DNA from: an uncultured delta proteobacterium
GTDB lineage: Bacteria > Desulfobacterota > RBG-13-43-22
Direction of reading: 5' to 3'
Length of the DNA: 64,000 nucleotides
Assembly (NCBI GenBank): GCA_963843145.1
Contig: CAWJJC010000012.1
Location: 128,001 to 192,000, forward strand
Shown: positions 38,993 to 62,377 of the stretch, piece after piece
How the letters are laid out: the number at the start of each line of letters is the position of its first letter
How positions within the stretch are numbered: position 1 is the first letter of the stretch
The notes under the pieces: generated by a model
Databases searched by the model: none
What the model was told of the DNA's origin: nothing
The model's input: only the letters and a program-made list of their open reading frames with translations
Translations under genes and position numbers: made by a program

Positions 38993-39032
38993 GGCGCCCC
39001 TTACTTGATGAACTCGCAAAAAGACGAATTAG

Positions 39033-39884
39033 CTATATCTTGAAACGAGTCACCCCTTTTTGGGCGACCGCGTAGTCGGGGCTTTTCTTGAACAATACCC
39101 CCAGATAGGGTACCTCACCCTTAACCAGGTCCTTGGGACGAAAATCAGGGTCGGAGCGCAGTGCCCGAATCCAGTTGATCAGTTCCCGGGTAGCCGGTTT
39201 TTTTTCAATGCCCCGGATTTCGCGCAGCCGGTAGAAGGCCTGCACGGTGCTGTCCAGCAGGTCCCGGCTGATTTCCGGGAAATGAACCTGGATGATTCGG
39301 CGCATCATGTCCGGATCCGGAAAGGCGATGTGGTGGAAGTTGCAGCGGCCTAGGAAGGGGTCGGACAGGTCTTTCTTGGCATTGGAGGTAATGACGATCA
39401 CCGGGCGATGTTTGGCCTTGACCGTTTTGTCGATTTCAATGATGTCGAACTCCATCTGGTCCAGCACATCGAGCATATCGTCCTGGAAGTCCGTATCGGC
39501 CTTGTCGATTTCATCGATCAGCAGGACCACTTTTTTATCGGTCACAAAGGACTGCCCAATTTTCCCCATTTTGATATATTCTTCGATATTGCTCACCTCC
39601 CGATTGGAGTCGCCGAAACGGCTGTCGTTCAACCGGGTCAGGGTGTCGTATTGATAAAGCGCATCAATCAACTTCATGCTCGATTTAACGTTGAGCACGA
39701 TCAGGCGCATCTTTAAGGCCTCGGAAATGGCGTAGGCCAGCATGGTTTTGCCGGTCCCCGGCTCACCCTTCAATAACAATGGCATCTCCAAGGACATGGA
39801 GATGTTGATGATCTTGGCCAATTCCTCGTCCAGGACATATTTGGACGCCCCGGAAAATTTTTGCGGTTCGGTTCCACTTGCCAT
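39033..39884 (-). CDS. MoxR-family AAA+ ATPase (CoxD-like)
   Basis: KGEPGTGKT, LYQYD..RL.DS, LLIDEIDKAD, ITSN..K.LSD.FL.RC, KKPAT.EL. Confidence 0.9.
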   Translation of the reverse strand: MASGTEPQKFSGASKYVLDEELAKIINISMSLEMPLLLKGEPGTGKTMLAYAISEALKMRLIVLNVKSSMKLIDALYQYDTLTRLNDSRFGDSNREVSNIEEYIKMGKIGQSFVTDKKVVLLIDEIDKADTDFQDDMLDVLDQMEFDIIEIDKTVKAKHRPVIVITSNAKKDLSDPFLGRCNFHHIAFPDPDMMRRIIQVHFPEISRDLLDSTVQAFYRLREIRGIEKKPATRELINWIRALRSDPDFRPKDLVKGEVPYLGVLFKKSPDYAVAQKGVTRFKI

Positions 39885-39972: not shown

Positions 39973-40188
39973 TCAATGTTTTCGGCGAGTATAAATTACC
40001 TGATACCGGTCGCAGGAGGCCATCAGGCAACTGGTGCATTCTCCGGCCAACTCCAGGGGGTCCAAAGGCTCCAGATGGACCTCGAAACCCATTGCCCGGT
40101 ATTCTTCCACCGCTTCACTCAATCGAGGTTCATCGGCGGTAAACTGTTTAGCCCAGCCCTCGCTTTCCAATTCCTCTTGACGTTTCAT
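39973..40188 (-). CDS. Small hypothetical protein with CxxC
   Basis: GGAGG RBS; EGW.KQF.ADEPRLSEAVE.Y..MGFEVHLEP...ECTSC...IYTR. Confidence 0.75.
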   Translation of the reverse strand: MKRQEELESEGWAKQFTADEPRLSEAVEEYRAMGFEVHLEPLDPLELAGECTSCLMASCDRYQVIYTRRKH

Positions 40189-40410
40189 GAGAACCTCCAA
40201 AATGCGCCGACCGCCAAGCGCTGAGCGCGAAGCGCCAAAGGCGACCAGGGGAACAAAATATCCATTGCCCCCCCCACTTATCTTTTATAAGACGCTCCGC
40301 GCCCGGCGAGAAAAGAGGCCGTCCGATGCATCCAGACCGTCGGTATTTTTCATTTTACCACATTTCTACAAAGAGCGCTGGAGAAGTCTGCTTTCTCGCT
40401 TGGGGGCCTT

Positions 40411-40701
40411 TTACCAGGAATGCGCGATGGCTCCCAGCGTACAAGCAGCGATGCAGGGAAGTGGCGGCCGATCGACCACCGGCTTACAGGGGCCGCAGGC
40501 GTATTTGATTTTTCTGCGTTCCGAATCGCGAATTACCGCTACCGGGGTTTCACGAAAAGGATCGTTGGGGTCATCCTCCCGGACCTCAAAGGCCCTTGCC
40601 GGACAGGCCGAAACGCAGTCGCCGCAGCCGTTGCATTTATCGGTATCCAGACTGATAAAAAATTCGCCTGCCCCGTCTTGAAATCCGTAATTGGCAATCA
40701 T
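40411..40701 (-). CDS. 2x[4Fe-4S] ferredoxin of the type associated with bzd-type reductases
   Basis: CNGCGDCVSACP and CGPC...PCIAAC; directly follows bzdQ. Confidence 0.85.
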   Translation of the reverse strand: MIANYGFQDGAGEFFISLDTDKCNGCGDCVSACPARAFEVREDDPNDPFRETPVAVIRDSERRKIKYACGPCKPVVDRPPLPCIAACTLGAIAHSW

Positions 40702-40787
40702 AAGAATATGTTGGTTATCGATATTCGGAAACGGTTGACCTCCGGTAGAACCGCACCAGAGGCTTTGGCCCTGCGCCTTGGCCTTTT

Positions 40788-41648
40788 TTATTTTTTCCTT
40801 TCCGCCAGGGCCTTGGCAAACAGGGCGGCGCCGAGGGCCCCGGCGATCTGGGTATCGTACCTGGGCGTGAGGGCCTTGAGGCCCAATTCCTTTTCCAGCC
40901 GGGAAACCACTCCGCTATTTTTGGCAATACCGCCGGTGATGGCGAAGTCCGGCTCCAGGCCGATCCGTTTCAGCAGGGTAGCCACCCGGTGGGCCATGGC
41001 GGAGGTGTAGGCGGCGATGACTCTTTCCTTGGGCCACCCCTTCCGCAGAAGACCCGAAGCCTCGGACTTGGCGAAGACCACGCAGGTACTGCTCACCGGG
41101 GGCGGCTCTTCCTTCACCTGCAACGACAGTTCGCCTATCTCATTAATGGAGACCCCCAGCAGGTCGGCAAACACCTCCAGGCCCCGGCCGGTCCCGGCGG
41201 CGCATTTATCGTTCATTAGAAAATTGGTCACCTTGCCCTGTTCGTCGATATGGATGGCCTTGCAGTCCTGGCCGCCCATGTCCAGCACGGTGCGGACCGT
41301 GGGGCCGTACATAAAATTGGCGCCCCGTCCATGGCAGGCGATTTCCGTGACGGCCCGTTGAGAAAAAGGCACATTGACCCGGCCGTAGCCGGTTCCCACG
41401 ATATAGTGAATTTTATCCAAAGTCAGACCGGTCTTCTCCAACGCCCAGTTCATGGCATTAGCGGCGCTGTTAGGGCTGTCGGACCCGGTGCGCATGTTGG
41501 CATAGCAGTAGATTTCGCCGTCGGTCATCACTACCGCCTGGGAGCTTACTGAACCCACATCCACGCCGGCGGTAATGAGCGTAGCTTTCCTCCAATCTTT
41601 CTCCGGCGCGGTCCAGCGGGATTCGGTCCATCTCCAAAATTCGGCCAT
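40788..41648 (-). CDS. bzdQ: Class I (bzd-type) benzoyl-CoA reductase ATPase subunit Q
   Basis: Trp-rich N-terminus EFWRW.E..W, GVDVGSVSSQ, MRTGSDSP, GTGYGR, DMGGQDCK, MNDKCAAGTGRG, STCVVFAKSE. Confidence 0.8.
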   Translation of the reverse strand: MAEFWRWTESRWTAPEKDWRKATLITAGVDVGSVSSQAVVMTDGEIYCYANMRTGSDSPNSAANAMNWALEKTGLTLDKIHYIVGTGYGRVNVPFSQRAVTEIACHGRGANFMYGPTVRTVLDMGGQDCKAIHIDEQGKVTNFLMNDKCAAGTGRGLEVFADLLGVSINEIGELSLQVKEEPPPVSSTCVVFAKSEASGLLRKGWPKERVIAAYTSAMAHRVATLLKRIGLEPDFAITGGIAKNSGVVSRLEKELGLKALTPRYDTQIAGALGAALFAKALAERKK

Positions 41649-41669
41649 AGTTATTTCTTCCCTGTTAAT

Positions 41670-42437
41670 TTATTCGCCGGCGGCCAATAGGGCCGCGCCA
41701 TAGGCGCCGACCGTTTCCGGGGTTTCCGGGATGAAGATTTCCGTATCCAGTTCCCGTCTCAACAATTCCACCAGACCCACGTTTCGGGCCACTCCGCCGA
41801 CGAGCAGCACTTCCTTTTCCATCCCTACCCTCCGGACCAGGGAGACGATCCGGTCGGCGATGGCCTCGTGAACGGCCCGGGCGATATCCGGCTTGGGAGT
41901 CTGGGAATGAATCAGAGTGACCAGCTCCGATTCGGCAAATACGGCGCATTGAGCGTTCATGGCCACGGCTCTGGTAGATAGCAACGAAAGCGGCCCTAAC
42001 TGTTCAATGGTCACTTCCAGCGCCCGGGCCATGGCTTCGGTAAAGGCCCCGGTCCCGGCAGCGCATTTTTCATTGATGGCGAAGTCCACCACCTTACCGC
42101 CGGCGTCGATCCTGATGGCCCGTGCTTCTTCGGCCCCCACGTCGATGACGGTTCGGATGCGCGACTCCAATCCGATAGCGCCTCTGGCCACTGCCGAAAC
42201 CTCGCTGACCTGGTCGTGGGCTTCGGAAACTTCTTTCCTCCCGGCGCCGGTGGAGAGGATCCGATCTATTTGATTTAACTGGACCCCGGCCTGGGGCAGG
42301 GCGTCCGCCCAGGCGGCCTGCGTCGATTCCTTGAGGTCATATCCAACCGGGATAATGGTTTGGCCTATAATCAGGTTATCCTTTAAAAGGATGATTTTGA
42401 TGGTTTTCGCGCCCACATCCACGCCCGCTGTAAACAT
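41670..42437 (-). CDS. ASKHA activase subunit, BzdP/BcrD-like partner of BzdQ
   Basis: GVDVGAKT, STGAGR, DVGAEEAR, NEKCAAGTGAF, NAQCAVFAESE; adjacent to bzdQ. Confidence 0.82.
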   Translation of the reverse strand: MFTAGVDVGAKTIKIILLKDNLIIGQTIIPVGYDLKESTQAAWADALPQAGVQLNQIDRILSTGAGRKEVSEAHDQVSEVSAVARGAIGLESRIRTVIDVGAEEARAIRIDAGGKVVDFAINEKCAAGTGAFTEAMARALEVTIEQLGPLSLLSTRAVAMNAQCAVFAESELVTLIHSQTPKPDIARAVHEAIADRIVSLVRRVGMEKEVLLVGGVARNVGLVELLRRELDTEIFIPETPETVGAYGAALLAAGE

Positions 42438-42714
42438 GATGTTCTTCCTCTTTTATTCAAAAGGTCTTCCGGCGGCACTATTTCCAGAAAGGCTTCCAGG
42501 CGAATTTCAAACTGGCCGATGTCTAGTTCCGGCAGACTACCATGCCTCTTATTGTTTTGTCCAGTGGTTGGGCAGGGTTATGGTAGGCGGGGACCACGGT
42601 CTGCGGTCCGAGGCGATGGACCGCTTCGGACCGATTTACGGATTTACGGAGGGCTGACGGACCAGGCGCATAATCCCGTTTTTGATTTTGTTCCGGAACG
42701 GTATGCAGCCTGGC

Positions 42715-43329
42715 CTATTCCTCTGATTCGGGTTCGGAGGAGGCCGGGGGAGATAGGAACGCTTGGGTCAGAACATAAGCGGCTTGAACGGCCTCAGTAG
42801 GACAAAGCGGAAAGCATTCTTTGCAGTTCCAGCACTCCTTAGCGGCTATTTCCGGAATAAAGCTGATCTCCTTCCATATACCCCGGTCAATAAACCCCAC
42901 GGCGTTCTTCTTCTTGACCTCGGCACAGTAGCGTACGCACAGACCACAATGAATGCAAAAGGAGGCCTCTTTTTCAAACCGGTCTTTGTCGGCCCCGTAC
43001 TCTCGAGCCAAATCCTGCAGATCAAAGGCATCCGGAGCATGAGCCAATAACAACTGCAGGATCATTTTGCGGATTCTATCCACTTTCGGAGACCTGGTTC
43101 TGACGACTAAATTTTTTTCCACCGGGTAAACGCAGGAAACAACCAGTCTGGTCCCACCGCGACTCTCCAATTCCACAAGGCACAGCCGGCAACCTCCAAA
43201 AGGCTCTAATTTTTCGTGGTAACAAAGTGTCGGAATCGAAATTCCCGCACTTCGGGCGGCTTCCAAAAGGGTCATTCCTTCCTGGGCGCTGACTTCTTTT
43301 CCGTCAATTTGCAATAGGATTTCGCTCAT
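42715..43329 (-). CDS. bamI: BamI, NuoG/HoxU-like Fe-S subunit of class II benzoyl-CoA reductase
   Basis: IPTLC..GGCRLC..SC [2Fe-2S], CIHCGLC and CWNCKECFPLCP; operon context. Confidence 0.85.
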   Translation of the reverse strand: MSEILLQIDGKEVSAQEGMTLLEAARSAGISIPTLCYHEKLEPFGGCRLCLVELESRGGTRLVVSCVYPVEKNLVVRTRSPKVDRIRKMILQLLLAHAPDAFDLQDLAREYGADKDRFEKEASFCIHCGLCVRYCAEVKKKNAVGFIDRGIWKEISFIPEIAAKECWNCKECFPLCPTEAVQAAYVLTQAFLSPPASSEPESEE

Positions 43330-45254
43330 TTTTTCTTACTCTCCCGGACTATCGTTCGCGCTTCTTCGGGAACAGGGGGCGGCACCGGCTCGCCGGAAAT
43401 CTTGTTCACCGAGCGAAAGCGAGGGGGGCAGACTTCAAAGCAGGTTCCGCATTTGGTGCACTTCTCCTGGTCAATGACATGGATCCGGTTCTTGCCCCCT
43501 TCAATCGCTCCGGCCGGGCACTTCTTCAGACAAATCATACAGGCCTGACACTTCGCCGGGTCTATATGGTAGGCAATCAGCTCCTTGCAGGACAAGGCCG
43601 GGCATCTTTTCTCCTTGATGTGGGCCTCGTACTCATCCCGGAAGTAGCGTAACGTGCTTAGAAACGGGTTCGGAGCGCTCTTGCCCAAAGCACAAAGGGC
43701 GGCTTCCTTGGCCGTCTCGGATAGCTCTTCCAGGAGCTCGATGTCACCCTCTTGGCCTTTTCCCTGGGTGATCTTCGTGAGAATCTTCAGCATCTGCCGC
43801 AGGCCTTCACGGCAGGGCACGCATTTGCCGCAGGATTCATCGGTGAGGAAGTTCATGAAGTACCTGGAAACATCCACCATGCAGGTAGTTTCATCCATCA
43901 CGATCATCCCACCGGATCCCATCATGGAACCGACCTGGGTGAGTTCATCAAAACCGACCGGCAGATCCAACAATTCCTCCGGGATGCAGCCGCCCGACGG
44001 TCCTCCGGTCTGCACGGCTTTGAAGCGCTTGCCGCCCGGAATGCCCCCGCCTATCTTGAAGATAATATCCCTCAGGGACGTGCCCATGGGTACTTCCACC
44101 AGGCCGGTATTGGTGATCTTGCCGACCAGGGAGAAAATCTTGGTGCCCTTGCTGCTCTCCGTACCATATTGGGTAAACCAGTCCGCCCCTTTATCGATGA
44201 TCAAGGGCACATTGGCCCAGGTCTCCACATTGTTCAAAACGCTGGGTTTACCCCAGAGGCCCACGATGTTGGAGCGGATATATTTCGGTCGGGGCTCTCC
44301 GACCCGGCCTTCCAGGGCCGTCATCAGCGCCGTTGATTCGCCACAGACAAAAGCTCCCGCCCCCTGATGCACGATCACTTTGAAATCAAAGCCCGTGCCC
44401 AGGATGTTCCGGCCCAGCAGGCCGTACTCCTCCGCCTGCCGGATGGCGAGAAAGACGTTTTCCACGGCTAAAGGGTATTCCTGTCGAACGTAGATATAGC
44501 CCTCGTGGGCGCCGACGGCATAGGCCCCGATGGTCAGCCCTTCGAGAACGGCGTGGGGATTCCCCTCGAGCAGGCTCCGGTCCATGTAGGCCCCCGGGTC
44601 CCCCTCGTCGGCATTGACGATTACATATTTAATCTCCTCCGGGGCATTGCGGGATCCTTCCCACTTGCGCCCGGCAGGAAAGCCGCCGCCCCCCCGCCCT
44701 CGCAGGTTGGCTTTCTTGACTTCCTGCAACACCTGATCGGAGGTCATTCCGGAAAGGGCTTTGGCCAAGGCGGAATACCCGCCAATAGCCAGATAATCAT
44801 CGATATTTTTGGGATCCACACTGCCGTTGGAACCGAAGACCAGCCGCTTCTGGTATTTGTAGAAGGGGATGTCTCCTTCATGAACGATCTTTTCCTGGGT
44901 GTCAGGGTCGGTATAGAGCAGACGTTCGATGACCTTCTTCTCTTTGATCGTCTGGGAGAGTATCTCCGGAACATCCTCCGGCTTTATCTGGAAATAACAT
45001 ATTTCCTCGGGATGGATAACGATAATGGGACCCCGCTCACAAAAACCGTGACAGCCGGTTTTCCGCAGGTCCACCGCAGCGCCTAAGCCTTGTTTCTCAA
45101 TCTCTTCTTCGATGCGCGCCGCGACTTCCCGGCTGCCGGAAGCATGGCAAGCCGATCCGGAGCAGAGGGTGATGCACGGTTTTTGGGGATCTCGGGTCGA
45201 AAGGATTTCCTTCCGGATTGCTTCCAATTCAGCGGGTGAATTTATCCGCGCCAT
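43326..45254 (-). CDS. bamH: BamH, NuoF-like NADH/FMN-binding subunit
   Basis: LRGRGGGGF, NADEGDPG, GAGAFVCGE, ESCGKCVPCREG, C-terminal 2x[4Fe-4S]. Confidence 0.9.
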   Translation of the reverse strand: MARINSPAELEAIRKEILSTRDPQKPCITLCSGSACHASGSREVAARIEEEIEKQGLGAAVDLRKTGCHGFCERGPIIVIHPEEICYFQIKPEDVPEILSQTIKEKKVIERLLYTDPDTQEKIVHEGDIPFYKYQKRLVFGSNGSVDPKNIDDYLAIGGYSALAKALSGMTSDQVLQEVKKANLRGRGGGGFPAGRKWEGSRNAPEEIKYVIVNADEGDPGAYMDRSLLEGNPHAVLEGLTIGAYAVGAHEGYIYVRQEYPLAVENVFLAIRQAEEYGLLGRNILGTGFDFKVIVHQGAGAFVCGESTALMTALEGRVGEPRPKYIRSNIVGLWGKPSVLNNVETWANVPLIIDKGADWFTQYGTESSKGTKIFSLVGKITNTGLVEVPMGTSLRDIIFKIGGGIPGGKRFKAVQTGGPSGGCIPEELLDLPVGFDELTQVGSMMGSGGMIVMDETTCMVDVSRYFMNFLTDESCGKCVPCREGLRQMLKILTKITQGKGQEGDIELLEELSETAKEAALCALGKSAPNPFLSTLRYFRDEYEAHIKEKRCPALSCKELIAYHIDPAKCQACMICLKKCPAGAIEGGKNRIHVIDQEKCTKCGTCFEVCPPRFRSVNKISGEPVPPPVPEEARTIVRESKKK

Positions 45255-45263
45255 AATTCTTCC

Positions 45264-45716
45264 TTACTCATAATTTTTTAACACGTTGGCTGCCTCGGCC
45301 GGCGCCATCTTACCGTGGGTTTTTCCATCGATTTCCATCACCGGTCCCAAAGCACAGCAGCCGAGGCAGTTGACGGTCTGCAGGCTGAACTTCAAATCCA
45401 GGTCCGATTCCCCGGGGTGAATGCCGGTCAGGTCCTGCACCGTATCAAGAACCCTCTGGGCTCCACGGACATGACAGGCCGTCCCCAAGCAAATGTGAAT
45501 TTCATGACGCCCCTTCGGGACCAGGCTGAAGGCTTTATAAAAGGTGGCGATATGCTGGATGCGGGTCATGGGAACCTGTAGCCGTTCGGCGACCCGCCCC
45601 AAAATTTCCTGGGGAAGCCAATGTTTTTCGGCCTGAATCTCCAGCAGTACCTGAATGAGCGAACTGGGCTCACCGTGATGTTTATCGATGATTTGATCGA
45701 TTCTCTCGTTATCCAT
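45264..45716 (-). CDS. bamG: BamG, NuoE-like [2Fe-2S] subunit
   Basis: CLGTACHVRG, CLGCCALGP. Confidence 0.9.
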   Translation of the reverse strand: MDNERIDQIIDKHHGEPSSLIQVLLEIQAEKHWLPQEILGRVAERLQVPMTRIQHIATFYKAFSLVPKGRHEIHICLGTACHVRGAQRVLDTVQDLTGIHPGESDLDLKFSLQTVNCLGCCALGPVMEIDGKTHGKMAPAEAANVLKNYE

Positions 45717-45770
45717 AGCCTTTGTTCCTGATCTCCCTCTGGCTCTTAAGGCAACGCGCGCTCTTGCATC

Positions 45771-46538
45771 TCAGGAGAGCGCATAGCGCTTCAGGCTTTC
45801 ATCATACCGCACCAGTCGATGTTTGGATGAAATCCCCAGGTGTTTTGATACTTCAGACGGGGTAAGACCTATACCCTGGGCGATTTCTCCGGTGGTGAGG
45901 GGCCCTTTTCGCAGGAGCGACACAATCTGGCCTATAGCCAATTTTTCTATAATGGTCTCATCAAATATCCGCTTCAGTTCGTCACTGTCAAAAAACTTCT
46001 GGTACGCCTCTTCTGCCAGGGCGGGTAACCTCAGCCGCTCCCTTTCCACCAGTCTAATGTAGGGGATGAGTTCGGTCACCACCCCCAGCTTGAGCTGCAA
46101 TCCTTTGGCCTCCAGGCCTTCGCCTTCGCCGAGCGGTCCCAATTCCTTCACCTGCTTGATAAAATCATTGACCGATTCAACAAAAAGGCCTCCTTCGGCG
46201 CCGGACATAAATTGAATCTTTAACCTTTCCGGCCTCAACCCGAGGTGCTCCATAATTTTCTTGCTGATATGCACCATGGTCAAGGCATGGTAGTTCCCGT
46301 GGGTGATGTAGTTGCATTCATTGAGATGGCAGGCGCCAATAAATACGCCATCCGCTCCCCTGGAGAAAGCCCGGAAGACATGGGCCAGGTCGATCCTGCC
46401 GGAACACATGACGCGAATAAGCCTCATTTCGGTGGAATATTGCAGTCTGGAAACTCCAGCCAGGTCCGCGGCGCCGTAGGCTCACCAATGGCAGACAAAA
46501 CCCAATACTTTTGGCTTAAATCTAGGTCCGGCACTCAT
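45771..46538 (-). CDS. bamF: BamF, MvhD-like Fe-S selenoprotein with C-terminal winged-helix-like extension (Sec at codon 19)
   Basis: ATG 46538 with GGAGGT RBS gives MSAGPRFKPKVLGFVCHW-U(TGA 46482-46484)-AYGAADLAG, in frame with ORF 45771..46427; U occupies the second Cys of the MvhD CxWC motif. Confidence 0.92.
46442..46469 (-). promoter_or_regulatory. Candidate bacterial SECIS of bamF
   Basis: CUGGA-GUU-UCCAG apical stem-loop with G first in the loop, about 28 nt after UGA; lower GCGG/CUGC pairing. Confidence 0.55.
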
Positions 46539-46556
46539 TCGTTCCTACCTCCGTAC

Positions 46557-46616
46557 TTAGATTCTTACCTCCGTTGTTCTGAGAATTTGTCTTTAACAAT
46601 GGAGGTAAGAATCTAA
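46557..46616. repeat. 22-bp near-perfect hairpin between bamE and bamF
   Basis: ttagattcttacctccgttgtt / aacaatggaggtaagaatctaa, one mismatch, 16-nt loop. Confidence 0.85.
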
Positions 46617-46666
46617 ATTTCAAATATTTTTGGCTAGCCTTTCCGGCTTTAGTCCTGCACAGGCTT

Positions 46667-49600
46667 CTAGGCATTTACAGCCGCCGCCATAGGTTCAATG
46701 ATCATTTCATCGGAAATCGCCGCGTCAATTTCGCTCAAGATCTCTTCGTCGGTAAAGTGTTTTAGAAAAATGGCACTGGTGGCGCACTTGGTGTTGCAGA
46801 GGCCGTCGCCTTTACAGAGGACCGGATTCACCTTGGCCTTTCGGCCCTGCGGCGTCTCGTAAAACTCAATGGCGCCGTACGTGCAGGCAGTGATGCAGGC
46901 CCCGCAGGAAACACACTTCTCCTCATTCACCTCGCAGACGGCGCCGGAAGCGACAACGGTCTCATGGGAGAGGAGCGTTAAAACCCGGCCGGCGGCTCCA
47001 TAAGATTGGTTAATCGTTTCCGGAATAAACTTGGGATAATGGGCCAAACCGCAGAGGTAGACGCCGTCCGTGGCAAACTCCACCGGTCTTAATTTGACAT
47101 GGGCTTCTTTGAAGAAGCCGTCCGGGCTCAAGGTTACCTTGAAGAATCCGGCAATTTCTTTGGTGCTGGCGGAGGGAATAACCGCGGCCGCCAGGGCCAG
47201 GATATCGGCATCCAGTTCCAGCTTTTTGCCCAAGATGGAATCGGTCTGGGTAACTTTGAGAACGGGACGACCGTCCTCCGATGTCCCCGCTTCTACCTGA
47301 GGCGCATCCTGCGGCTCGTAGCGGATAAACTTGACGTCTTTATTCGAGGCTTCCCGGTAATAATCTTCTTTAAAGCCATAGGTCCTCATATCCCTGAAGA
47401 GTATGGTGATATCCATCTGCGGGTTAAGCTCTTTCAGTTTCAAGGCATGCTTGACGGACTGGCTGCAACAAATCCGGCTGCAATAATTCCGGTCTTGATT
47501 TCGGCAGCCGATGCATTGGATCATCACCAGACTCTGGGAGTTAATCACCCGTTCATCTCCTAGAGCGATCCGCCCTTCCAGCTCCAGGTGCGTCAGAACC
47601 CGGTCATCTTCTCCATACAAGTATTCCGTCGGTCGGTAAACCTCGGCCCCGGTGGCGATGACGGCGGCGCCATGTCGTATCTCGGTGACCCCTCGGTCGG
47701 ATTTCACTTTGGTGACGAAACTCCCGATATAGCCGGTCGCTTCGGTGATGGTCGCCTCGGTATAGACATGGATCAAGGGGTGCCGATACACCCGACTCAC
47801 CAGTTCCCGCACCTGGGCCTGGACGTCCAGGCCTTCCAGGGTATAATGGATTTTTCGGGCGATCCCCCCCAAATCGGTTTCCTTTTCCACCAGGTGCACC
47901 TCGTGCCCCTGTTCGGCAATGGAAAGCGCACAGGTCAGGCCGGCCAGACCCCCGCCGACCACCAAGGCCGCCCTGTTGACCGGCAGATCAAATTCCTGCA
48001 GCGGCTCCAGGTGACAGGCGCGGGCCACCGACATGCGGATGATATCTTTGGCTTTCTGGGTGGCTTCTTCCTTTTCCTTCGAGTGAACCCAGGAGTTATG
48101 CTCTCGGATATTCGCCATGTCTAAATAATATTGATTGATTCCCGCCTCCCGTAGGGTGTCCCGGAATAACGGTTCCAGGGTCCGGGGGGAGCAGGCAGCG
48201 ACAATGACGCGATTGAGCCCTTTTTCCCTGGTCAGGTCCGTTATTTCTTTGGCCGAATTCGTCGCACAGGAAAAAACCTGATTCTGAGCGTGGACCACAT
48301 TGGGCAGGGATTTGCAATACTCGACCGTGTCGGGAACATTTACCACGGAGGAGATATTCGCCCCGCAATGACAGACAAAGACTCCGATCCGCGGCTCCTC
48401 TTGGGAAACATCCCTTTCCGGGGGATAGATTCTTTCCCGGGTCAGCTTCCCGCGCCGGTAGTTCAGGAATTGGCCGCATTGGGAGCCGGCACCACTGGCG
48501 CTGAAAACCGCCTCCGGGATATCGACCGGCCCCTGGAGGGCGCCGCTGACAAAGATCCCGGGCCTGTTGGTCACCAGAGGATTGACCGGATCGAGCTTGC
48601 AAAAATTGTGGTGATTGAGTTCGATGCCGAATTTCTTGGCCAACCCCGATACCTCCGCCGGAGGGTTCAATCCGACGGATAGTACCACCATATCGAATTC
48701 TTCCTCTTGGACGCCGTCTTCGGGGGTGGCATACCGCAGGGTGACATTCTTGGTTTCCGGGATCTCTTTTCCTAGAGATACATAGCTTCTGATAAAGCGA
48801 ACCCCGGGGAGGTTCTCGGCCCTTTGGTAGTAGCGTTCGAAATCCTTCCCGAAGGAACGAATATCGTTATGGAATATGGTACATTCGGCCTCCGGGTGAT
48901 GATCCTTGGTCAAAATCACCTGTTTCTGGGTATAGGTGCAACAGACGGCGGAACAATAGCTGTTACCGCCCGGAGGGTTGATCTGTCTGGAACCGACGCA
49001 TTGGATCCAGGCGATTTTACGGGGATGCTTCAGGTCGGAAGCACGCAGTATCTCACCAGCGTAGGCCCCGGTGGAGGATAAGAGCCGTTCATAGTCCATA
49101 CTGGTCACCACGTTTTGGAACTCTCCGTAGTGATAATCTCCCCGTACCTTAGGGTCAAAGGGCTCGAGGCCGAGGGAGAGAATGATCGCCGCAACCTTCA
49201 GCTCCAGCTTCTCCGGCACTTGATGGAAATCGATGGCCTTATTTTCGCACACGCCTTCGCAGATACGACATTTCTTCTCCTTCAGATATAGACAGCTTTC
49301 GTCGATATAGGAGACCAGGGGAATGGCCTGGGAGAAGTAGATATGAACGGCTTTATTCTCCGATATTTCCTGATTAAATGGATCGGGGTATAATACCGGG
49401 CAGTATTTCACGCAAGTGGTACAACCCGTGCATTGATCCTCTTTGATATATCTTGGTTTTCTGGTCAGGGAGACCGTAAAATCTCCCGCTTCCCCTTCGA
49501 TACCGTTCACTTCAGTATACGTCAGGACCTCGATGTTGGGATGCCGGCCGACCTCGACCAGTTTGGGTGACAGGATTCACATGGAGCAGTCATTGGTGGG

Positions 49601-49792
49601 AAAGGTCTTGTCCAATTGGGCCATGTGGCCCCCGATGCTCGGTGCCTTCTCAACCAGGTAGACCCTAAAACCCGCCGTGGCCAGATCGAGTGAGGCTTGA
49701 ATACCGCTGATCCCTCCACCGACAACCAGGACGTCGCCGAAAGTCCCGGCGTCGAGACTATTCGCCTGCTGTTCCGTCTGTTCTTTTTCCAC
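46667..49792 (-). CDS. bamE: BamE, HdrA-like flavin/Fe-S selenoprotein (Sec at codon 72)
   Basis: ORFs 49577..49792 and 46667..49510 are in frame across TGA 49577-49579: [30 protein letters not shown], i.e. the HdrA CxxC motif. Two FAD-binding halves and multiple Fe-S motifs. Confidence 0.93.
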
Positions 49793-49824
49793 TTCTCTTT
49801 CCCTCTTCAGGTTTCTCGGGTTAA

Positions 49825-50976
49825 TTATATTGTTTCATTAATGATTTCAGTGAGATCCTTCACCTCGAGGCGTTCGCTAAGCTCCAGAGTCAACCGGCTG
49901 TCTTCGAACATGGTAATGCAGTAGGGGCAGGCGGTCACCAGCACTTCGGCCCCAACCCCCAAGGCTTGTTCCAGGCGGAGTTCGGAAAATCGTTCACCCT
50001 TTGGCGTCTCCATCCAGATCCGGCCGCCGCCTCCTCCGCAACAGAGGCTGTCAACCCGTGAATCCGGCAGTTCCATCAGCTCCAACCCGGGGATTTTCTT
50101 TAAGGCCTCCCGGGGCTCGTCAAATATACCATTATGGCGACCCAGGTAGCAGGGGTCATGATACGCCACTTTTCTTCCATATTCCTTTTTGATCTCCAAC
50201 CTCCCTGTCTGAAGCAGCTCGAATAAATACTGGGAGATGTGAATGACCTCAAAATTCACCTGGAATTCCGGATACTCATTCTTGAAGGTATGGTAGCAGT
50301 GGGGGGAGGAAACCAGGATTTTTTTCACCCCATGATCGATGAAGGTTTTGATGTTTTCCCGGGCCAGGCGTTTGAATAATTCCTCATCGCCCGCCTTGCG
50401 GATGCTTTCTCCGCAGCAATTTTCCTTCGTGCCCAGTATCCCAAAGTCCACCCCGGCTTGATTGAGCAGAGCGGCTGTGGCCCGGGCCACCTTTTTTAAC
50501 CTGGGATCATAGCTGAGGTAACAACCGGGGAAATATAAAATTTCCATCCCCTCGGTGAAGGGTTTGACCGACAGTCCTTCCGCCCACTTGGCTCTGTCTT
50601 TTCGCGCTTCAGTCAAGGGGTTCCCTTCGTCAATGAGGCTGGCGCTGGCGGTACGCACCGGCTTGACGGCCTTCGGAAAAACTTGATATTCCGTGGCAAT
50701 CCGGCGCAGGGCGATCCCGGATTGTATCTGTTGGACGTCTCGGGGACAGCGCTGCGGGCAACGGCCGCAGGTCGTACAGCGCCAGATTTCTTCACTTTCT
50801 ATGTCCGTCAAACCGAACGTGGCCTCCCGAACGATCTTGCGTATACTGAAGTTTCTGACCCGGTTCCAGGGACAAACCGTATCGCATAATCCGCATTGAT
50901 AGCATCGCTTGAAGGCGTCTCCACCGCTCGCCTTGATGACTTCTATGATCTCTTGATAGGGGGCTACAGTCTCCAC
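49825..50976 (-). CDS. bamD: BamD, HdrC/HdrD-like Fe-S protein with CCG domains
   Basis: [50 protein letters not shown]. Confidence 0.9.
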
Positions 50977-51097
50977 GGTCTTTCTCAGTCCTTTTCCCGG
51001 GGCATAAGGGGATGTTTACCCTTTCTAATCCGAAAACGGTTCTCTAAATCGTTACCAGGCGGGCTTTTAATTTCAGCCAAAAATTGAAAATTTTTGG

Positions 51098-51649
51098 CTA
51101 GCCCTTCTTGGACACGGACAGTCGGGCCACAGTGTCCAGGACCTTCTCCAAGCCATATTTGTCTACCAATGATTCCAACCCGATTTCCACGTCCTCGGCC
51201 TTCACCTCTTCTTCGACTTCCTCTTCCCTTTCTTCGTACGACAGGGCATTCACCAGGCACCACTTGACGCACAAGGGCTCCTCCTCGCCTTCACACATAT
51301 CGCATTTCAGCGGAAGACCGGAATCGGGTTCCTTGAAAAGATCCCGGGAGGGGCAGGAAGAGCGGCAAAAAGCACATTCGTCGTATTCTTTACCGTCAAT
51401 CACATATTTGTCCCGCCCCATACACTCGGCTTTAGCATTTTCGCCGGCGTAAACGGGAACATAAACGTCTTTCAGCGGTTCACGAATCACTCGAATACGG
51501 GACCTGGCCGGATTATTGCTGCTATATTGGGGTGCCGCGTGAAAGGCGGAGCAGGCGACCTCGCAGGCTCGGCAACCGTTGCATTTATCCACATCGACCT
51601 TTATCGTTTTAACTATTTTCTTTTTCTTCTCACCCATGACGATACCCAC
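51098..51649 (-). CDS. bamC: BamC, [4Fe-4S] electron-transfer subunit
   Basis: CNGCRACEVACSAFH...SSNNPARSRI, ECAFCRSSCPSR, PLKCDMC; follows bamB. Confidence 0.92.
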   Translation of the reverse strand: MGIVMGEKKKKIVKTIKVDVDKCNGCRACEVACSAFHAAPQYSSNNPARSRIRVIREPLKDVYVPVYAGENAKAECMGRDKYVIDGKEYDECAFCRSSCPSRDLFKEPDSGLPLKCDMCEGEEEPLCVKWCLVNALSYEEREEEVEEEVKAEDVEIGLESLVDKYGLEKVLDTVARLSVSKKG

Positions 51650-51674
51650 CTCTTCACTTTATTTCTCCAGCCAT

Positions 51675-53666
51675 TTACGCCGAAGCCGCTTCAGATGGAG
51701 TCCCTTCGTTTTCCGTGTAGATCCCTCTCTTCTCAAAGTCTTCGCTCACGTAATCCAAACCCAATTCATGCAGGGACTCTTTCGTGGGAATTCCCTCACT
51801 ATTCCAGCCCTTAAATTGGTAATAGGTATCTAAAAGCTCCTTTTCCAAATCGGGAAATCTTTTTTTCCAATGGTCTTCCGGCGGCTTATCATCTTTTCTC
51901 CTCATGCCTCTGCGGATATTGATAGCCCTAACCAAAGTCCGGTACCTCTTGGTGGCTTGCGTCAGTTTGTCTTCATCCATTTCGATCCCAGCACCAGACG
52001 AGATAAATTTCGGGTAGTTATGTATATGATAAGGAGGCTTCAGGGGAAAGGATGACAAACCGGCGCACATCCCGAGGGCGTCATCGATGTAGTGCATCCG
52101 TTCCTGCCAATCGACAATGTCACAACACATTTGCACCGTGGGGTAGAAGGGCATGGATTTCTCCCCCCGGGGTTCCCAATCCAAAAAAATCTGCTTGAAC
52201 TTTTCGTCCGGAACGTGAAACCAATCCTGGACAAAGGCCTCCCGCTCCTCCCGCGTCGGAAAAGGCGCCTGGGGGAACTGCCCTTCAATTTGGGTGATGT
52301 TGATCTTTTCGCCGGTGGCATACATGAGGAAATAAATGGGATTGAGCATGGACAGCTTGAGGGGCAGTTGCTCGTGCTTTTTAATATTATTATGGGCATA
52401 GGCTTCCGCGCCCTTGCCGATCTGCCGGGCCGCCCAATAGGTGCCGTTGGCCAACACATCGCCGATCCCGTCCCGCCGAACGATGCGGTCCAATAACCAG
52501 TGAAATCTCCCTTCATTGTCGGAAGGCATTCCGGGAAAGTCCTGATCAGTCAAAATGCCGGCTTCATAAAGCTCCAGGGCGAAGGCCATGACCTGGGGGG
52601 CGGAGAAGGCGTCCACCCCATACTCCGTGGCACTTTGAGCGATACCCAACCCAAACTCCAGGTCGGACATGGCCGCCATGGTATAGGTAAGTTTCGAGAA
52701 GCATTTCATCATGTAGGTGGGCTGTCCCGGGGGCGCAATGGTGGCCCCGCAGGTCATCGGACAGTTGTAGCAACTGATCAGCCGCCTCCGCATACTATCC
52801 AGGGTCTCCGCCCACTGGCTGGCGATCTCCTCGTTCCAAAAATCTTTGCGGCGGGTGCGGGAATTCCCCCACATGAAATTTTCGGTGTGCCATTTTTCAT
52901 CATGGACTTTCATCTCTTGCGGCGACCCCAGCCCGGCTAAAATGGGCATGACCCCGGGAACCGGATTTTCATTTCGCCATTTTATGTAGGTCAAAACTTC
53001 GTTGCAAAGTCCCATGAATTCAGCCGGCCGGGCCACATTAATGTCCCTGGTTCCCCGAACGACTATGGCCTTGACGCCTTTGTCTCCCATCACGGCGCCT
53101 ATGCCGCCCCGGCTGGCACTGGACCGGCCCTGCTCGATGGAAGCAAAATAGACCCTGTTTTCCCCGGCCAGGCCGATAGCCGCCACCTGGGCCTTGGGCT
53201 CCTTCAACTCCTGCCGAATTAGTTCTGCCGTTTCCACGGCGCCTTTACCTTTCAAATGAGCGGCATCCCTTATTTCCACTTTGTCATTGTTTATCCAGAT
53301 ATAGACCAGATGGGGGGACTTGCCGCGCAGAACCACTTTGTCATAACCGGCATACTTCAATTCCGGCGCCCAAAATCCCCCCATCATGGAGTAGGCCATT
53401 AATTGCGTCTGAGGCGAAATGGTGGAAACGATGGTCCGATTACAACCGGTAGCCGGTGTTCCGCATAAAAGACCGGCGCCGAATATTAAGAGATTATCAG
53501 GGGAAAAGGGTTCGGTTTCGGGGGGAACCCTATCCCATAAAAGCTTGGCGTTAGTCCCAAGGCCCCCCAGATAAAGTTCCGTGTCTCTTGGGTCGGTTTC
53601 TACCCGCTCAATGTTTCCTCGGGATAGATCAATTTCTAAATTAAACCCCGTCTCGGCGTAACGCAT
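51675..53666 (-). CDS. bamB: BamB, tungsten-bis-pterin catalytic subunit of class II benzoyl-CoA reductase (AOR family)
   Basis: MRYAETG..LEIDL, GGLGTNAK, SASRGGIGAVMGDK, GLGSPQEMKVHDEKWHTENF and MKCFSKL match from memory the Geobacter BamB sequence rather than generic AORs. Confidence 0.95.
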   Translation of the reverse strand: MRYAETGFNLEIDLSRGNIERVETDPRDTELYLGGLGTNAKLLWDRVPPETEPFSPDNLLIFGAGLLCGTPATGCNRTIVSTISPQTQLMAYSMMGGFWAPELKYAGYDKVVLRGKSPHLVYIWINNDKVEIRDAAHLKGKGAVETAELIRQELKEPKAQVAAIGLAGENRVYFASIEQGRSSASRGGIGAVMGDKGVKAIVVRGTRDINVARPAEFMGLCNEVLTYIKWRNENPVPGVMPILAGLGSPQEMKVHDEKWHTENFMWGNSRTRRKDFWNEEIASQWAETLDSMRRRLISCYNCPMTCGATIAPPGQPTYMMKCFSKLTYTMAAMSDLEFGLGIAQSATEYGVDAFSAPQVMAFALELYEAGILTDQDFPGMPSDNEGRFHWLLDRIVRRDGIGDVLANGTYWAARQIGKGAEAYAHNNIKKHEQLPLKLSMLNPIYFLMYATGEKINITQIEGQFPQAPFPTREEREAFVQDWFHVPDEKFKQIFLDWEPRGEKSMPFYPTVQMCCDIVDWQERMHYIDDALGMCAGLSSFPLKPPYHIHNYPKFISSGAGIEMDEDKLTQATKRYRTLVRAINIRRGMRRKDDKPPEDHWKKRFPDLEKELLDTYYQFKGWNSEGIPTKESLHELGLDYVSEDFEKRGIYTENEGTPSEAASA

Positions 53667-53773: not shown

Positions 53774-54241
53774 TTACTCTTTCGGTTCCAATTTTTTATA
53801 TAAATTAATAAAGTTGCTCCGGTTAAACCCGATGGATTTAAAAAAGGAAAGTATATCCACCGCGTCCCAGCGGGCGGCCGTGTAAATCTCATTGATTTTA
53901 TTTTTCTTGAACAGTTTGAACAAATGGGTGATCAAGGACTGGCCGATGCCGGTCCCCATGTATTTGGGATGAACCCCTATGATCTTGATCCAGCCGCTCT
54001 GGTCCAGGCCAAAGCTATTGGTCATGATTTCGCTGATGATGAAGCCGACCACCTGATCCCCAGCCAAGGCCGCCAGACTCAGGCTGCTGTCATTCTGAAT
54101 GGTATCCCCCCATTGGGCAATTTTCTTGGGGCCGATCTTTTTTTTGGTAATAATCTCCTGAATATGTATCACCTGGGGCAGATCGGCGGTCAATAATTTT
54201 CGGAATTTAATCGTTTTCAAGGCCATCTCGCTCTCCATCAA
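53774..54241 (-). CDS. GNAT-fold protein immediately upstream of bamB
   Basis: VVGFII, IGVHPKYMGTGIG acyl-CoA-binding motif A, FFKSIGF. Confidence 0.85.
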   Translation of the reverse strand: MMESEMALKTIKFRKLLTADLPQVIHIQEIITKKKIGPKKIAQWGDTIQNDSSLSLAALAGDQVVGFIISEIMTNSFGLDQSGWIKIIGVHPKYMGTGIGQSLITHLFKLFKKNKINEIYTAARWDAVDILSFFKSIGFNRSNFINLYKKLEPKE

Positions 54242-62273: not shown

Positions 62274-62377
62274 AGGGCAATGGAAAAAAATCCGAAAGGC
62301 AAACCGGGAGCGTGACGGCAGGTCGCCGCCACGCTGTCCGTGTGGGTCAGTGGCAAAAAAAATTCTATTGAAATTTT

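What the first reader, a model, noticed from the sequence alone, without database searches (positions are those of the whole stretch)
39973..53666. Possible hybrid dearomatising system: complete W-dependent class II BCR operon followed by the ATP-driven half of a class I BCR without its catalytic subunits
Seen: bamBCDEFGHI is followed co-directionally by a BzdP-like activase, bzdQ, a 2x[4Fe-4S] ferredoxin and a small CxxC protein. No bzdN/bzdO (2-hydroxyacyl-CoA dehydratase-like) gene or remnant is visible in the gaps or elsewhere in the window. Established: class II BCR is considered ATP-independent, with bifurcation proposed via the HdrA-like BamE, while class I BCR needs BzdPQ (ATPase) plus BzdNO (catalytic). 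The two classes are normally treated as alternatives. Inference: the orphan PQ-ferredoxin module may be an ATP-driven low-potential electron supply or reactivase for BamBC or its W/Fe-S centres. It could instead serve an unlinked BzdNO.
Basis: partly seen in the sequence, partly recalled or inferred. Interest (0 to 1): 0.85.

Follow-up and report, generated by a model that had tools for sequence, protein, structure and literature searches.

The report
Tungsten benzoyl-CoA reductase operon with orphan ATPase module
A complete tungsten/selenium benzoyl-CoA reductase operon is followed by the ATP-driven electron-activating half of the other reductase class without its catalytic subunits, and this pairing recurs in many anaerobes, so some supposedly ATP-independent ring reductases may use an ATP-powered helper.

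Summary
One detail is wrong: the bamI-P gap holds a 21-codon relic of a bzdN-like gene.

No canonical bzdN or bzdO was found in the genome. The P, Q, ferredoxin and small genes are intact and under purifying selection (dN/dS 0.06-0.22).

The arrangement is not unique. In 401 sampled genomes of the phylum, 66 carry a Q orthologue.
- 46 of these have BamB and none of the 46 has a canonical-grade bzdN.
- 10 have such a bzdN and none of the 10 has BamB.
- In 22 genomes Q lies within 21 kb of bamB, in at least five gene orders.

At least four context switches are needed on the Q tree. Some genomes have no unpaired catalytic-family gene that PQ could serve.

Best reading (about 0.55): the module serves the Bam complex as an ATP-driven low-potential electron injector, probably a primer or reactivator. 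Evidence against: 74 of 120 BamB genomes lack Q, an orphan N/O-like pair exists elsewhere in this genome, and there is no biochemical evidence. I found no paper describing the link.

The parts
51675..53666 (-). bamB, tungsten-pterin catalytic subunit of class II benzoyl-CoA reductase
   Evidence: AFOR_N plus AFOR_C domains. 1263.4 bits to PDB 4Z3W_A with no gaps over residues 1-651; Cys322 conserved.
51098..51649 (-). bamC, poly-[4Fe-4S] partner of BamB
   Evidence: Fer4 domains. 295.3 bits to 4Z3W_E.
49825..50976 (-). bamD, HdrBC-like subunit (4Fe-4S dicluster plus two CCG domains)
   Evidence: Pfam CCG 133 bits, Fer4_8.
46667..49792 (-). bamE, HdrA-like flavoprotein with an in-frame TGA (probable selenocysteine) at 49577-49579. 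The start near 49792 is approximate.
   Evidence: HdrA2 model 779.5 bits (below its cut-off of 1100), Pyr_redox_2 and Fer4 domains. Read-through translation gives ...DCSM-U-ILSPK. In L079, L089 and L092 a 71-72-aa ORF with an FAD-binding motif sits just upstream of bamE, which would fit the same split.
45771..46538 (-). bamF, MvhD/FlpD-like subunit with an in-frame TGA (probable selenocysteine) at 46482-46484 and a C-terminal winged-helix-like domain
   Evidence: FlpD 107 bits, HTH_5 31 bits. Read-through gives MSAGPRFKPKVLGFVCHW-U-AYG.
45264..45716 (-). bamG, NuoE-like [2Fe-2S] subunit
   Evidence: 2Fe-2S_thioredx 165 bits.
43326..45254 (-). bamH, NuoF-like FMN/NAD(H) subunit
   Evidence: Complex1_51K and NADH_4Fe-4S domains. 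nuoF family model 469.7 bits.
42715..43329 (-). bamI, NuoG-N-terminal-like 2Fe-2S/4Fe-4S subunit
   Evidence: Fer2_4 and Fer4_7 domains.
42458..42520 (-). Relic of the 3' end (last 21 codons) of a bzdN-like gene in the bamI-P gap
   Evidence: tblastn of BzdN from L033, residues 375-395: 62% identity, E 0.007 over the whole window. Same relic in same-genus L132 at 6163-6225. A full N-like gene sits at this place in L031 and L131.
41670..42437 (-). bzdP-like ATPase subunit (BcrAD/BadFG family)
   Evidence: PF01869 156.9 bits; TIGR00241 226.6 bits. Motifs VIDVGAEEARAI, NEKCAAGTG and AQCAVFAESE match those of P in canonical N-O-P-Q clusters. dN/dS 0.13-0.19.
40788..41648 (-). bzdQ ATPase subunit
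   Evidence: TIGR03192 417.8 bits against a cut-off of 380.2. 218.9 bits to PDB 9GAI_D, MbdQ. Cluster Cys149 and Cys189 and the DMGGQDCK motif are present. dN/dS 0.06-0.22.
40411..40701 (-). 2x[4Fe-4S] ferredoxin of the bzd module
   Evidence: Fer4 families. 8 invariant Cys in 33 sequences. Follows Q in most related loci.
39973..40188 (-). 71-aa CxxC protein of unknown family, conserved with the P-Q-ferredoxin module
   Evidence: No Pfam or NCBIfam hit. Invariant W12, E25, Y30, V37, C51 and C54 in 33 sequences from both N/O-linked and Bam-linked clusters. Model pLDDT 85.6 with no PDB fold match.

Best explanation
The P-Q pair, the ferredoxin and the small CxxC protein form the electron-activating half of a bzd-type class I benzoyl-CoA reductase. 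It has lost its BzdNO catalytic partner and is kept because it works with the tungsten/selenium Bam complex encoded next to it.

Proposed mechanism:
1. The ferredoxin reduces the [4Fe-4S] cluster that bridges P and Q. The ligands are Cys125 and Cys164 of P and Cys149 and Cys189 of Q.
2. ATP hydrolysis lowers that cluster's potential.
3. The electron is injected into the Fe-S chain of the Bam complex.

I think the most likely role is catalytic priming or reactivation of Bam, returning its W or Fe-S/flavin centres to the competent reduced state. This is how activators of the same family act on 2-hydroxyacyl-CoA dehydratases. Stoichiometric ATP coupling seems less likely.

Shown here: gene content, intact motifs, purifying selection, no canonical BzdNO found, and recurrent co-location and co-occurrence with bamB.
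Inferred: the client is Bam, the direction of electron flow, and the catalytic (not stoichiometric) mode.
For: 1. Recurrent synteny in different orders.
- BamB..I-P-Q-Fd-small: window, L132, L026, L027, L029, L032, L125.
- P-Q-(Fd)-BamB..H: L106-L108.
- P-Q-Fd-small, about 2 kb, then BamB..: L109-L113.
- BamBCDEF-P-Q-Fd: L079, L089, L092, L094, L114, L115.
- Divergent orientation: L116.
These include Chloroflexota (L089) and Acidobacteriota (L094) records.

2. Phylum sample of 401 genomes.
- Q is present in 66.
- 46 of the 66 have BamB (E <= 1e-120), against 19.8 expected if Q and BamB were independent. 0 of the 46 have bzdN at 420 bits or more.
- 10 of the 66 have such a bzdN, and 0 of those 10 have BamB.
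- Q lies within 21 kb of bamB on one contig in 22 genomes.

3. 0 of 16 genomes whose Q lacks a full adjacent N-O pair pass the bzdN model; 4 of 4 canonical controls pass.

4. On a Q tree of 103 rows, N/O-linked versus Bam-linked context needs 7 switches. This falls to 6 after collapsing branches with support under 90, and to 4 after collapsing those under 95. Shuffled labels give means of 12.9-20.8.

5. In G243 (95% complete) the only HGD-D gene has its own activase next to it, while PQ sits beside bamB. The same holds for the strong HGD-D gene of G183 and G399.

6. dN/dS is 0.13-0.19 for P, 0.06-0.22 for Q, 0.11-0.21 for the ferredoxin and 0.19 for the small protein. Bam genes give 0.05-0.19. 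P and Q keep the cluster Cys residues and the motifs of canonical P and Q.

7. In this genus the N-like gene is relaxed (dN/dS 0.36) or deleted, while P and Q stay constrained at 0.15 and 0.105.

8. [quoted passage not shown]
Against: - 74 of 120 BamB genomes in the sample lack Q, so Bam does not need PQ. From established knowledge, the purified Geobacter enzyme is described as ATP-independent.
- PQ does not replace BamGHI. Among the BamB genomes the counts are Q+H+ 29, Q+H- 17, Q-H+ 24, Q-H- 50.
- In this genus the module arrived with an N-like gene (relic). The local arrangement can therefore be read as a decaying class I insert.
- This genome has an orphan N/O-like pair on C27 with no ATPase within the 20 kb annotated.
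- All 45 of 45 Q+BamB genomes searched hold some HGD-D gene.
- Four BamB genomes (L127-L130) have P-Q-Fd standing alone among unrelated genes.
- Exclusivity is not absolute: G019 has a canonical N-O-P-Q cluster and also BamB at 82% identity.
- Related genomes are not independent samples.
- There is no evidence here of contact, co-transcription or ATP dependence.
Confidence: 0.55

Rival explanations
1. PQ and the ferredoxin work in trans with an HGD-D-family catalytic pair encoded elsewhere. In this genome that would be the orphan N/O-like pair on contig C27, which sits beside an ABC transporter, a CoA ligase and an AFOR paralogue. The result would be a split class I-like aryl-CoA reductase for some other substrate. 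On this reading, the position next to bam reflects only shared regulation of aromatic catabolism.
For: - The C27 pair (L022 9925-11058 and 11152-12378) has HGD-D scores of 224 and 264 bits. No BcrAD ATPase lies in the 20 kb annotated or anywhere on that contig.
- The other HGD-D loci of this genome (C10, C28, C20) have their own ATPases.
- A 96%-identical pair, again without an ATPase on its contig, is in same-genus G355.
- All 45 of 45 Q+BamB genomes have some HGD-D gene.
- PQ and NO are thought to form only a transient complex (PMC11971306, passages read).
Against: - The C27 proteins are only 28% and 27% identical to canonical BzdN and BzdO, whereas Q is 72-81% identical to the Q of canonical clusters.
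- Homologues of the C27 N-like protein (53-54% identity) also occur in family members without Q (G277, G403), with no ATPase on those contigs.
- G243 has no unpaired HGD-D gene at all yet keeps PQ beside bamB.
- This reading does not explain why PQ joins bam in five different gene orders.
Confidence: 0.2
2. P-Q-Fd(-reductase)-small protein is a self-contained, general ATP-driven source of very low-potential electrons with several or still unknown clients. Bam would be only one client, or none.
For: - The module stands alone among unrelated genes in L119, L121 and L127-L130.
- In canonical clusters it carries its own 832-aa NuoG-N/GltD-like putative NAD(P)H:ferredoxin reductase.
- Residues around the cluster Cys residues of Q are invariant in 33 sequences from both contexts.
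Against: - Among 66 Q genomes, 56 have either BamB or a canonical-grade bzdN.
- Of the 10 Q genomes with neither, 8 were fetched. Three of those show an N and/or O gene next to P-Q after all (L120, L122, L126), and one shows BamI next to P at a contig edge (L125).
- No third conserved neighbour was seen.
Confidence: 0.15
3. The four genes are a leftover of a class I operon that was inserted after bamI and is decaying. They have no present function.
For: - A bzdN relic lies in the bamI-P gap.
- The N-like gene of same-genus genomes is relaxed (dN/dS 0.36) and has no O partner.
- The ferredoxin was not detected in L131.
Against: - dN/dS of Q is 0.06-0.07 at dS above 1 against family members that also lack N/O.
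- The reading frames and the cluster and ATP motifs are intact.
- Q is present in 10 of 13 other genomes of the family, and no bzdN at 420 bits or more was found in the family.
Confidence: 0.05

Closest known systems
Class II benzoyl-CoA reductase Bam[(BC)2DEFGHI]2 of Geobacter metallireducens (PDB 4Z3W for BamBC)
   Same: All eight subunits are present in the same order. BamB matches 4Z3W_A without gaps over residues 1-651 (1263 bits) and keeps Cys322; BamC scores 295 bits. BamE and BamF have in-frame TGA codons at the expected Cys/Sec motifs.
   Different: Four extra co-directional genes (P, Q, ferredoxin, small CxxC protein) follow bamI. From recall, the Geobacter cluster has no such genes. 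BamF here ends in a winged-helix-like domain.
Bzd-type class I benzoyl-CoA reductase BzdNOPQ with ferredoxin BzdM (Aromatoleum/Azoarcus), as in the canonical N-O-P-Q-Fd clusters of L033, L046 and L081
   Same: Q passes the curated bzdQ model. P, Q, the ferredoxin and the small protein are orthologous to those of canonical clusters: Q is 72-81% identical, the order P-Q-Fd is the same, and the motifs are the same.
   Different: The catalytic BzdN and BzdO are missing. None is in the window, the genome's best scores are far below the cut-offs, and only a 21-codon relic remains. The 832-aa putative ferredoxin reductase of canonical clusters is also missing.
3-methylbenzoyl-CoA reductase MbdNOPQ (PDB 9GAI)
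   Same: Closest solved relative of Q by sequence: 218.9 bits to MbdQ. P scores 129.4 bits to MbdP.
   Different: P scores higher against the dehydratase activator 4EHT (190.6 bits) than against MbdP. No N or O partner is present here.
Activators of 2-hydroxyacyl-CoA dehydratases (HgdC 1HUX, HadI 4EHT)
   Same: Same ATPase family with the two cluster-bridging Cys residues: 183-204 bits for Q and 158-191 bits for P. The proposed working mode is the same: occasional ATP-driven injection of one electron.
   Different: Two different subunits rather than a homodimer (inferred from the two genes). No dehydratase gene is adjacent, and the proposed client belongs to an unrelated tungsten enzyme family.

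Membership tests
Class II (W/Se) benzoyl-CoA reductase BamBCDEFGHI | AOR-family tungsten subunit orthologous to BamB, with the Cys322 ligand | tested here: met
   1263.4 bits to 4Z3W_A, residues 1-651 aligned without gaps, MMKCF motif conserved. That Cys322 is the W ligand comes from PMC12096430 (passage read).
Class II (W/Se) benzoyl-CoA reductase BamBCDEFGHI | BamC poly-ferredoxin plus the HdrBC-like BamD, HdrA-like BamE and MvhD-like BamF | tested here: met
   BamC 295 bits to 4Z3W_E. Domain hits for CCG, HdrA2 and FlpD.
Class II (W/Se) benzoyl-CoA reductase BamBCDEFGHI | Selenocysteine in BamE and BamF | tested here: inconclusive
   One in-frame TGA each, at DCSM-U-ILSPK and FVCHW-U-AYG, with the frame open on both sides. 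I did not search for a SECIS element.
Class II (W/Se) benzoyl-CoA reductase BamBCDEFGHI | NuoEFG-like BamGHI module | tested here: met
   2Fe-2S_thioredx, Complex1_51K plus NADH_4Fe-4S, and Fer2_4 plus Fer4 domains.
Class II (W/Se) benzoyl-CoA reductase BamBCDEFGHI | ATP-independent catalysis | not testable with these tools
   Needs enzyme assays.
Class I bzd-type benzoyl-CoA reductase BzdNOPQ | BzdQ ATPase subunit | tested here: met
   TIGR03192 417.8 bits against a cut-off of 380.2.
Class I bzd-type benzoyl-CoA reductase BzdNOPQ | BzdP ATPase subunit | tested here: met
   No curated equivalog passes. Orthology rests on position directly upstream of Q and on motifs identical to P of canonical clusters.
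Class I bzd-type benzoyl-CoA reductase BzdNOPQ | BzdN catalytic subunit | tested here: not met
   No HGD-D gene on the window's contig. Genome best for TIGR03190 is 186.4 bits against a cut-off of 453.8. Only a 21-codon relic remains.
Class I bzd-type benzoyl-CoA reductase BzdNOPQ | BzdO catalytic subunit | tested here: not met
   Genome best for TIGR03191 is 113.8 bits against a cut-off of 448.6.
2-hydroxyacyl-CoA dehydratase activator (HgdC/HadI type) | BcrAD/BadFG ATPase with two cluster-bridging Cys per subunit | tested here: met
   PF01869 at 156.9 and 199.7 bits. CAAGTG and C-x-VF motifs are present in both P and Q.
2-hydroxyacyl-CoA dehydratase activator (HgdC/HadI type) | Adjacent HGD-D dehydratase genes as the client | tested here: not met
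   No PF06050 match on contig C12.

The most novel reading that the evidence does not exclude
A third kind of benzoyl-CoA reductase exists. In it the BzdPQ ATPase docks on the tungsten Bam complex and drives ring reduction with stoichiometric ATP hydrolysis. The electron path would be NADH to BamGHI, then ferredoxin, then PQ, then BamB-F. In clusters without GHI, PQ-Fd would act directly on BamBCDEF. If so, a large share of the 'ATP-independent' class II enzymes of sulfate reducers and syntrophs would in fact be ATP-coupled.
Probability: 0.2. Interest if true: 0.95.

Novelty: new variant of a known kind. Interest (0 to 1): 0.8.

Why it matters
How class II benzoyl-CoA reductases reach about -622 mV without ATP is an open question. 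PMC11971306 (passages read) calls the high-potential acceptor unknown, and the proposed flavin-based bifurcation is still a proposal.

In the sampled Desulfobacterota genomes, 46 of 120 with BamB also keep a BzdPQ-ferredoxin module under purifying selection and have no canonical-grade BzdN. The module is often in the same gene cluster as bam. If it feeds Bam, three things follow.
- The two-class scheme (ATP-dependent versus ATP-independent) is incomplete.
- Energy budgets for anaerobic aromatic degradation by sulfate reducers and syntrophs need revising.
- Metagenome surveys that score bcr/bzd ATPase genes as 'class I' would be miscounting.

The finding also gives a concrete experiment: Bam activity with and without PQ, ferredoxin and ATP.

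Tried and rejected
- Complex prediction (P, Q, ferredoxin, with the small protein as partner) was never accepted because the queue was full. Whether the small protein binds the module is untested. No PQ-Bam contact prediction was attempted.
- The idea that PQ replaces BamGHI is not supported as a rule. Six GHI-less BamBCDEF-P-Q clusters exist, and type D/E genomes have no BamH-like hit above 63% identity, against 76-80% for true BamH. But across 120 BamB genomes Q goes with H rather than instead of it. The 68% identity cut for 'BamH orthologue' is my own; eight f16 genomes at 64-67% may be true orthologues.
- A replicate in a second phylum failed. Q was found in 1 of 201 Chloroflexota genomes, and that one was the seed genome itself.
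- A fold search of the small protein's model found nothing (best E 0.9). The protein atlas gave only unnamed clusters.
- The promoter/terminator scan was uninformative: 18 terminator-like sites against 24.5 expected. None lies on the minus strand between bamI and P.
- Sequencing runs: one metatranscriptome (X7) has short contigs 97-98% identical over the small gene (40005-40175) and P (42172-42422), and over BamH, BamD and BamB. These are contigs of a relative, DNA carry-over cannot be excluded, and no contig bridges bamI-P. This is a weak hint only.
- Absence of HGD-D genes could not be used as a general test, because 45 of 45 genomes have one.
- Literature searches and passages read in nine papers found no description of a Bam-BzdPQ link. 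One search failed on a term format. Subscription-only papers on class II BCR occurrence and on sulfate-reducer Bam complexes, which I only recall, were not available and may bear on novelty.

Full report
WHAT IS THERE

All genes of the finding lie on the minus strand.
- BamB (51675-53666) aligns without gaps to residues 1-651 of Geobacter metallireducens BamB (PDB 4Z3W_A, 1263 bits) and keeps Cys322.
- BamC scores 295 bits to 4Z3W_E.
- BamD has a 4Fe-4S dicluster and two CCG domains. BamE is HdrA-like and BamF is FlpD/MvhD-like. BamG, BamH and BamI are NuoE/F/G-like.
- The plain ORFs of BamE and BamF are truncated at their 5' ends by single in-frame TGA codons, at 49577-49579 and 46482-46484. 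Read as selenocysteine these give DCSM-U-ILSPK and FVCHW-U-AYG. I take this as the W/Se type, but I did not look for SECIS elements.

Four more genes follow.
- P (41670-42437) is a BcrAD/BadFG ATPase that passes only the generic activase model.
- Q (40788-41648) passes the curated bzdQ model, 417.8 bits against 380.2.
- The ferredoxin (40411-40701) has eight invariant cysteines.
- The small protein (39973-40188) is 71 aa with an invariant CxxC and matches no known family.

THE MISSING CATALYTIC HALF

No HGD-D (PF06050) gene lies on the window's contig. The genome has 10 matches, on C10, C19 (one weak, sub-threshold), C20, C27 and C28. The best scores against the curated bzdN and bzdO models are 186.4 bits (cut-off 453.8) and 113.8 bits (cut-off 448.6).

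The last 21 residues of a canonical BzdN match window 42458-42520, minus strand, in the 277-bp bamI-P gap, at 62% identity and E 0.007 for the whole window.
- Same-genus genome G355 (L132) has the same relic.
- Two other same-genus genomes (L031, L131) still carry a whole N-like gene there, without any O.
- That N-like gene evolves under relaxed constraint: dN/dS is 0.36, against 0.15 for P and 0.105 for Q in the same genome pair.

So in this genus the module entered behind bamI with at least an N gene. N is being lost and P and Q are kept.

ARE P AND Q STILL WORKING GENES?

Against four relatives, dN/dS is 0.13-0.19 for P, 0.06-0.22 for Q, 0.11-0.21 for the ferredoxin and 0.19 for the small protein. 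The bam genes give 0.05-0.19. Both cluster-bridging cysteines and the nucleotide motifs are present. P carries exactly the motifs of P in canonical N-O-P-Q clusters. Q is very conserved: the 120 best of 8000 scored homologues are 63-95% identical.

HOW COMMON IS THE ARRANGEMENT?

The search for related loci found 587 relatives of Q and kept the best 80. I classified these by tblastn with the window's proteins and this genome's N/O-like proteins.
- 53 have N and/or O upstream.
- 10 are Bam-linked: L026-L029, L031, L032, L079, L089, L092, L094.
- 3 have neither within 10 kb. One of them, L030, has bamB 17.5 kb upstream behind an inserted restriction-modification island.
- 14 sit at contig edges.

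Canonical clusters read N-O-P-Q-Fd, then an 832-aa NuoG-N/GltD-like flavoprotein, then the small CxxC protein. The small protein therefore belongs to the module in both contexts.

The bzdN model passes in 4 of 4 canonical control genomes. It passes in 0 of 16 genomes whose Q lacks a full adjacent N-O pair. The best of the 16, at 308 bits, is the in-cluster N-like gene of L031.

PHYLUM SAMPLE

In 401 genomes drawn from the window's phylum, 66 have a Q orthologue (E <= 1e-90), 120 have BamB (E <= 1e-120), and 38 have a bzdN hit at E <= 1e-60.

Cross-tabulation:
- 46 Q genomes have BamB, and none of them has bzdN at 420 bits or more.
- 10 Q genomes have such a bzdN, and none of them has BamB.
- 10 have neither. 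I fetched 8 of these. Three turned out to have an N and/or O gene next to P-Q, and one has BamI next to P at a contig edge.
- Q lies within 21 kb of bamB on one contig in 22 genomes. bamB is 0.26-5.8 kb downstream of Q in 12, 8-20 kb upstream in 9, and on the opposite strand in 1.

Fetched loci show at least five gene orders. On a quick tree of 103 Q sequences, the N/O-linked versus Bam-linked label needs 7 changes. This falls to 6 and 4 after collapsing branches under 90 and 95 SH-aLRT. Shuffled labels give means of 12.9-20.8. Related genomes are not independent, the backbone of the tree is weak, and the thresholds are mine.

COULD PQ SERVE ANOTHER CATALYTIC PARTNER?

This genome has one unpaired candidate. 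It is an N/O-like pair on C27 beside an ABC transporter, a CoA ligase, an AFOR paralogue and a PocR-type kinase, with no ATPase on that contig. The other HGD-D loci (C10, C28, C20) have their own ATPases.

Against C27 as the client:
- Its proteins are 27-28% identical to canonical BzdN and BzdO.
- 53-54%-identical homologues occur in two family members that lack Q.

All 45 of 45 Q+BamB genomes searched have some HGD-D gene, so absence cannot settle the matter in general. But in G243 (95% complete) the single HGD-D gene has its own activase adjacent while PQ sits beside bamB. The same is true of the one strong HGD-D gene in G183 and in G399.

P-Q-Fd also stands alone among unrelated genes in several BamB genomes, with no third conserved neighbour.

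MECHANISM

The established part concerns the ATPase family. BcrAD/BzdPQ/HgdC-type ATPases hold a [4Fe-4S] cluster between two subunits, take an electron from ferredoxin, and use ATP hydrolysis to pass it to a partner at much lower potential. PMC11971306 (passages read) describes BzdPQ-BzdNO as a probably transient complex and calls the high-potential acceptor of class II unknown.

From the synteny and co-occurrence I infer that the partner here is the Bam complex. I favour a priming or reactivating role over stoichiometric coupling, for three reasons.
- 74 of 120 BamB genomes have no Q.
- Q goes together with BamH rather than replacing it: Q+H+ 29, Q+H- 17, Q-H+ 24, Q-H- 50.
- The organism carries dsrA (613 bits), so it is probably an energy-limited anaerobe.

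Six BamBCDEF-P-Q clusters without GHI leave room for a stoichiometric variant. In those genomes the best BamH-like hit is at most 63% identical.

Exclusivity of N and BamB is not absolute: G019 has both.

COMPARISON AND NOVELTY

As a whole this is neither a class I enzyme (two defining subunits tested and not met) nor the plain Geobacter-type class II operon. Seven literature searches found no description of a BzdPQ-Bam link. I read passages in these nine papers:
- PMC5736913
- PMC4148979
- PMC13101534
- PMC11971306
- PMC10936416
- PMC13328260
- PMC12096430
- PMC13416013
- PMC1924859

[quoted passage not shown] Two reviews of tungsten enzymes from 2025-2026 had no occurrences of the ATPase-related terms I searched. 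Subscription-only literature was not searchable.

I rate it a new variant of a known kind, with high interest. It is supported by comparative genomics only.

Noticed in passing
window 42458-42520 (-): A 21-codon relic of the 3' end of a bzdN-like gene in the bamI-P gap. The same relic is in L132. A full but relaxed N-like gene without O sits at this place in L031 and L131.
   Followed up: yes
window 49577-49579 and 46482-46484 (-): In-frame TGA codons in bamE and bamF at Cys/Sec-type motifs, so plain ORF calling truncates both genes. I did not search for SECIS elements.
   Followed up: partly
window 45771-46427 (-), C-terminal third of BamF: BamF here ends in an ArsR/winged-helix-like domain (HTH_5, 31 bits). 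BamF of the GHI-less clusters (L079, L089, L092, L094) ends in a 2x[4Fe-4S] domain instead.
   Followed up: partly
window 53774-54241 (-); L031 7196-7657; L079 11308-11778; L092 4469-4921: A GNAT acetyltransferase gene recurs at varying positions in or beside bam clusters.
   Followed up: no
window 15369-16325 (+): A third, lone BcrAD/BadFG ATPase (318 aa), followed by a 153-aa ORF of no family and a sigma-54 response regulator. It is conserved in same-genus genomes (G355 C33, G188 C3). No catalytic partner lies nearby.
   Followed up: no
window 37799-39884 (-): An AAA ATPase (283 aa; partial MadB-family hit, 112.8 bits against a cut-off of 475) and a 406-aa protein of no family. Both are 95-99% identical across the genus, far more conserved than the neighbouring P, Q and ferredoxin genes. 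They were not detected by tblastn in the other loci searched.
   Followed up: partly
G000 contig C27, L022 5432-12378: An orphan N/O-like HGD-D pair without an ATPase. It lies beside a second AFOR-family gene (641 aa), a PocR/PAS histidine kinase, an ABC transporter and a CoA ligase.
   Followed up: partly
window 61500-63365 (-): A 621-aa ORF that fuses an electron-transfer-flavoprotein alpha-like part (ETF, ETF_alpha) to an alpha/beta-hydrolase domain.
   Followed up: no
L028 926-8755; L030 526-8710: Defence or mobile genes (Eco57I-type methylase, helicase, WYL, PD-(D/E)XK, DUF3800) are inserted between the bam genes and P-Q in two family members. P-Q-Fd-small is left intact.
   Followed up: partly
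L048 11022-13949; L036 11215-11610 and 18796-20541: In L048 (Thermoplasmatota) a canonical N-O-P-Q-Fd cluster carries BamG/H/I-like (NuoEFG-type) genes where other canonical clusters have the 832-aa flavoprotein. L036 shows only a BamG-like gene after Fd and a BamH-like hit about 7 kb further on. This hints that such modules reduce the ferredoxin of PQ.
   Followed up: no
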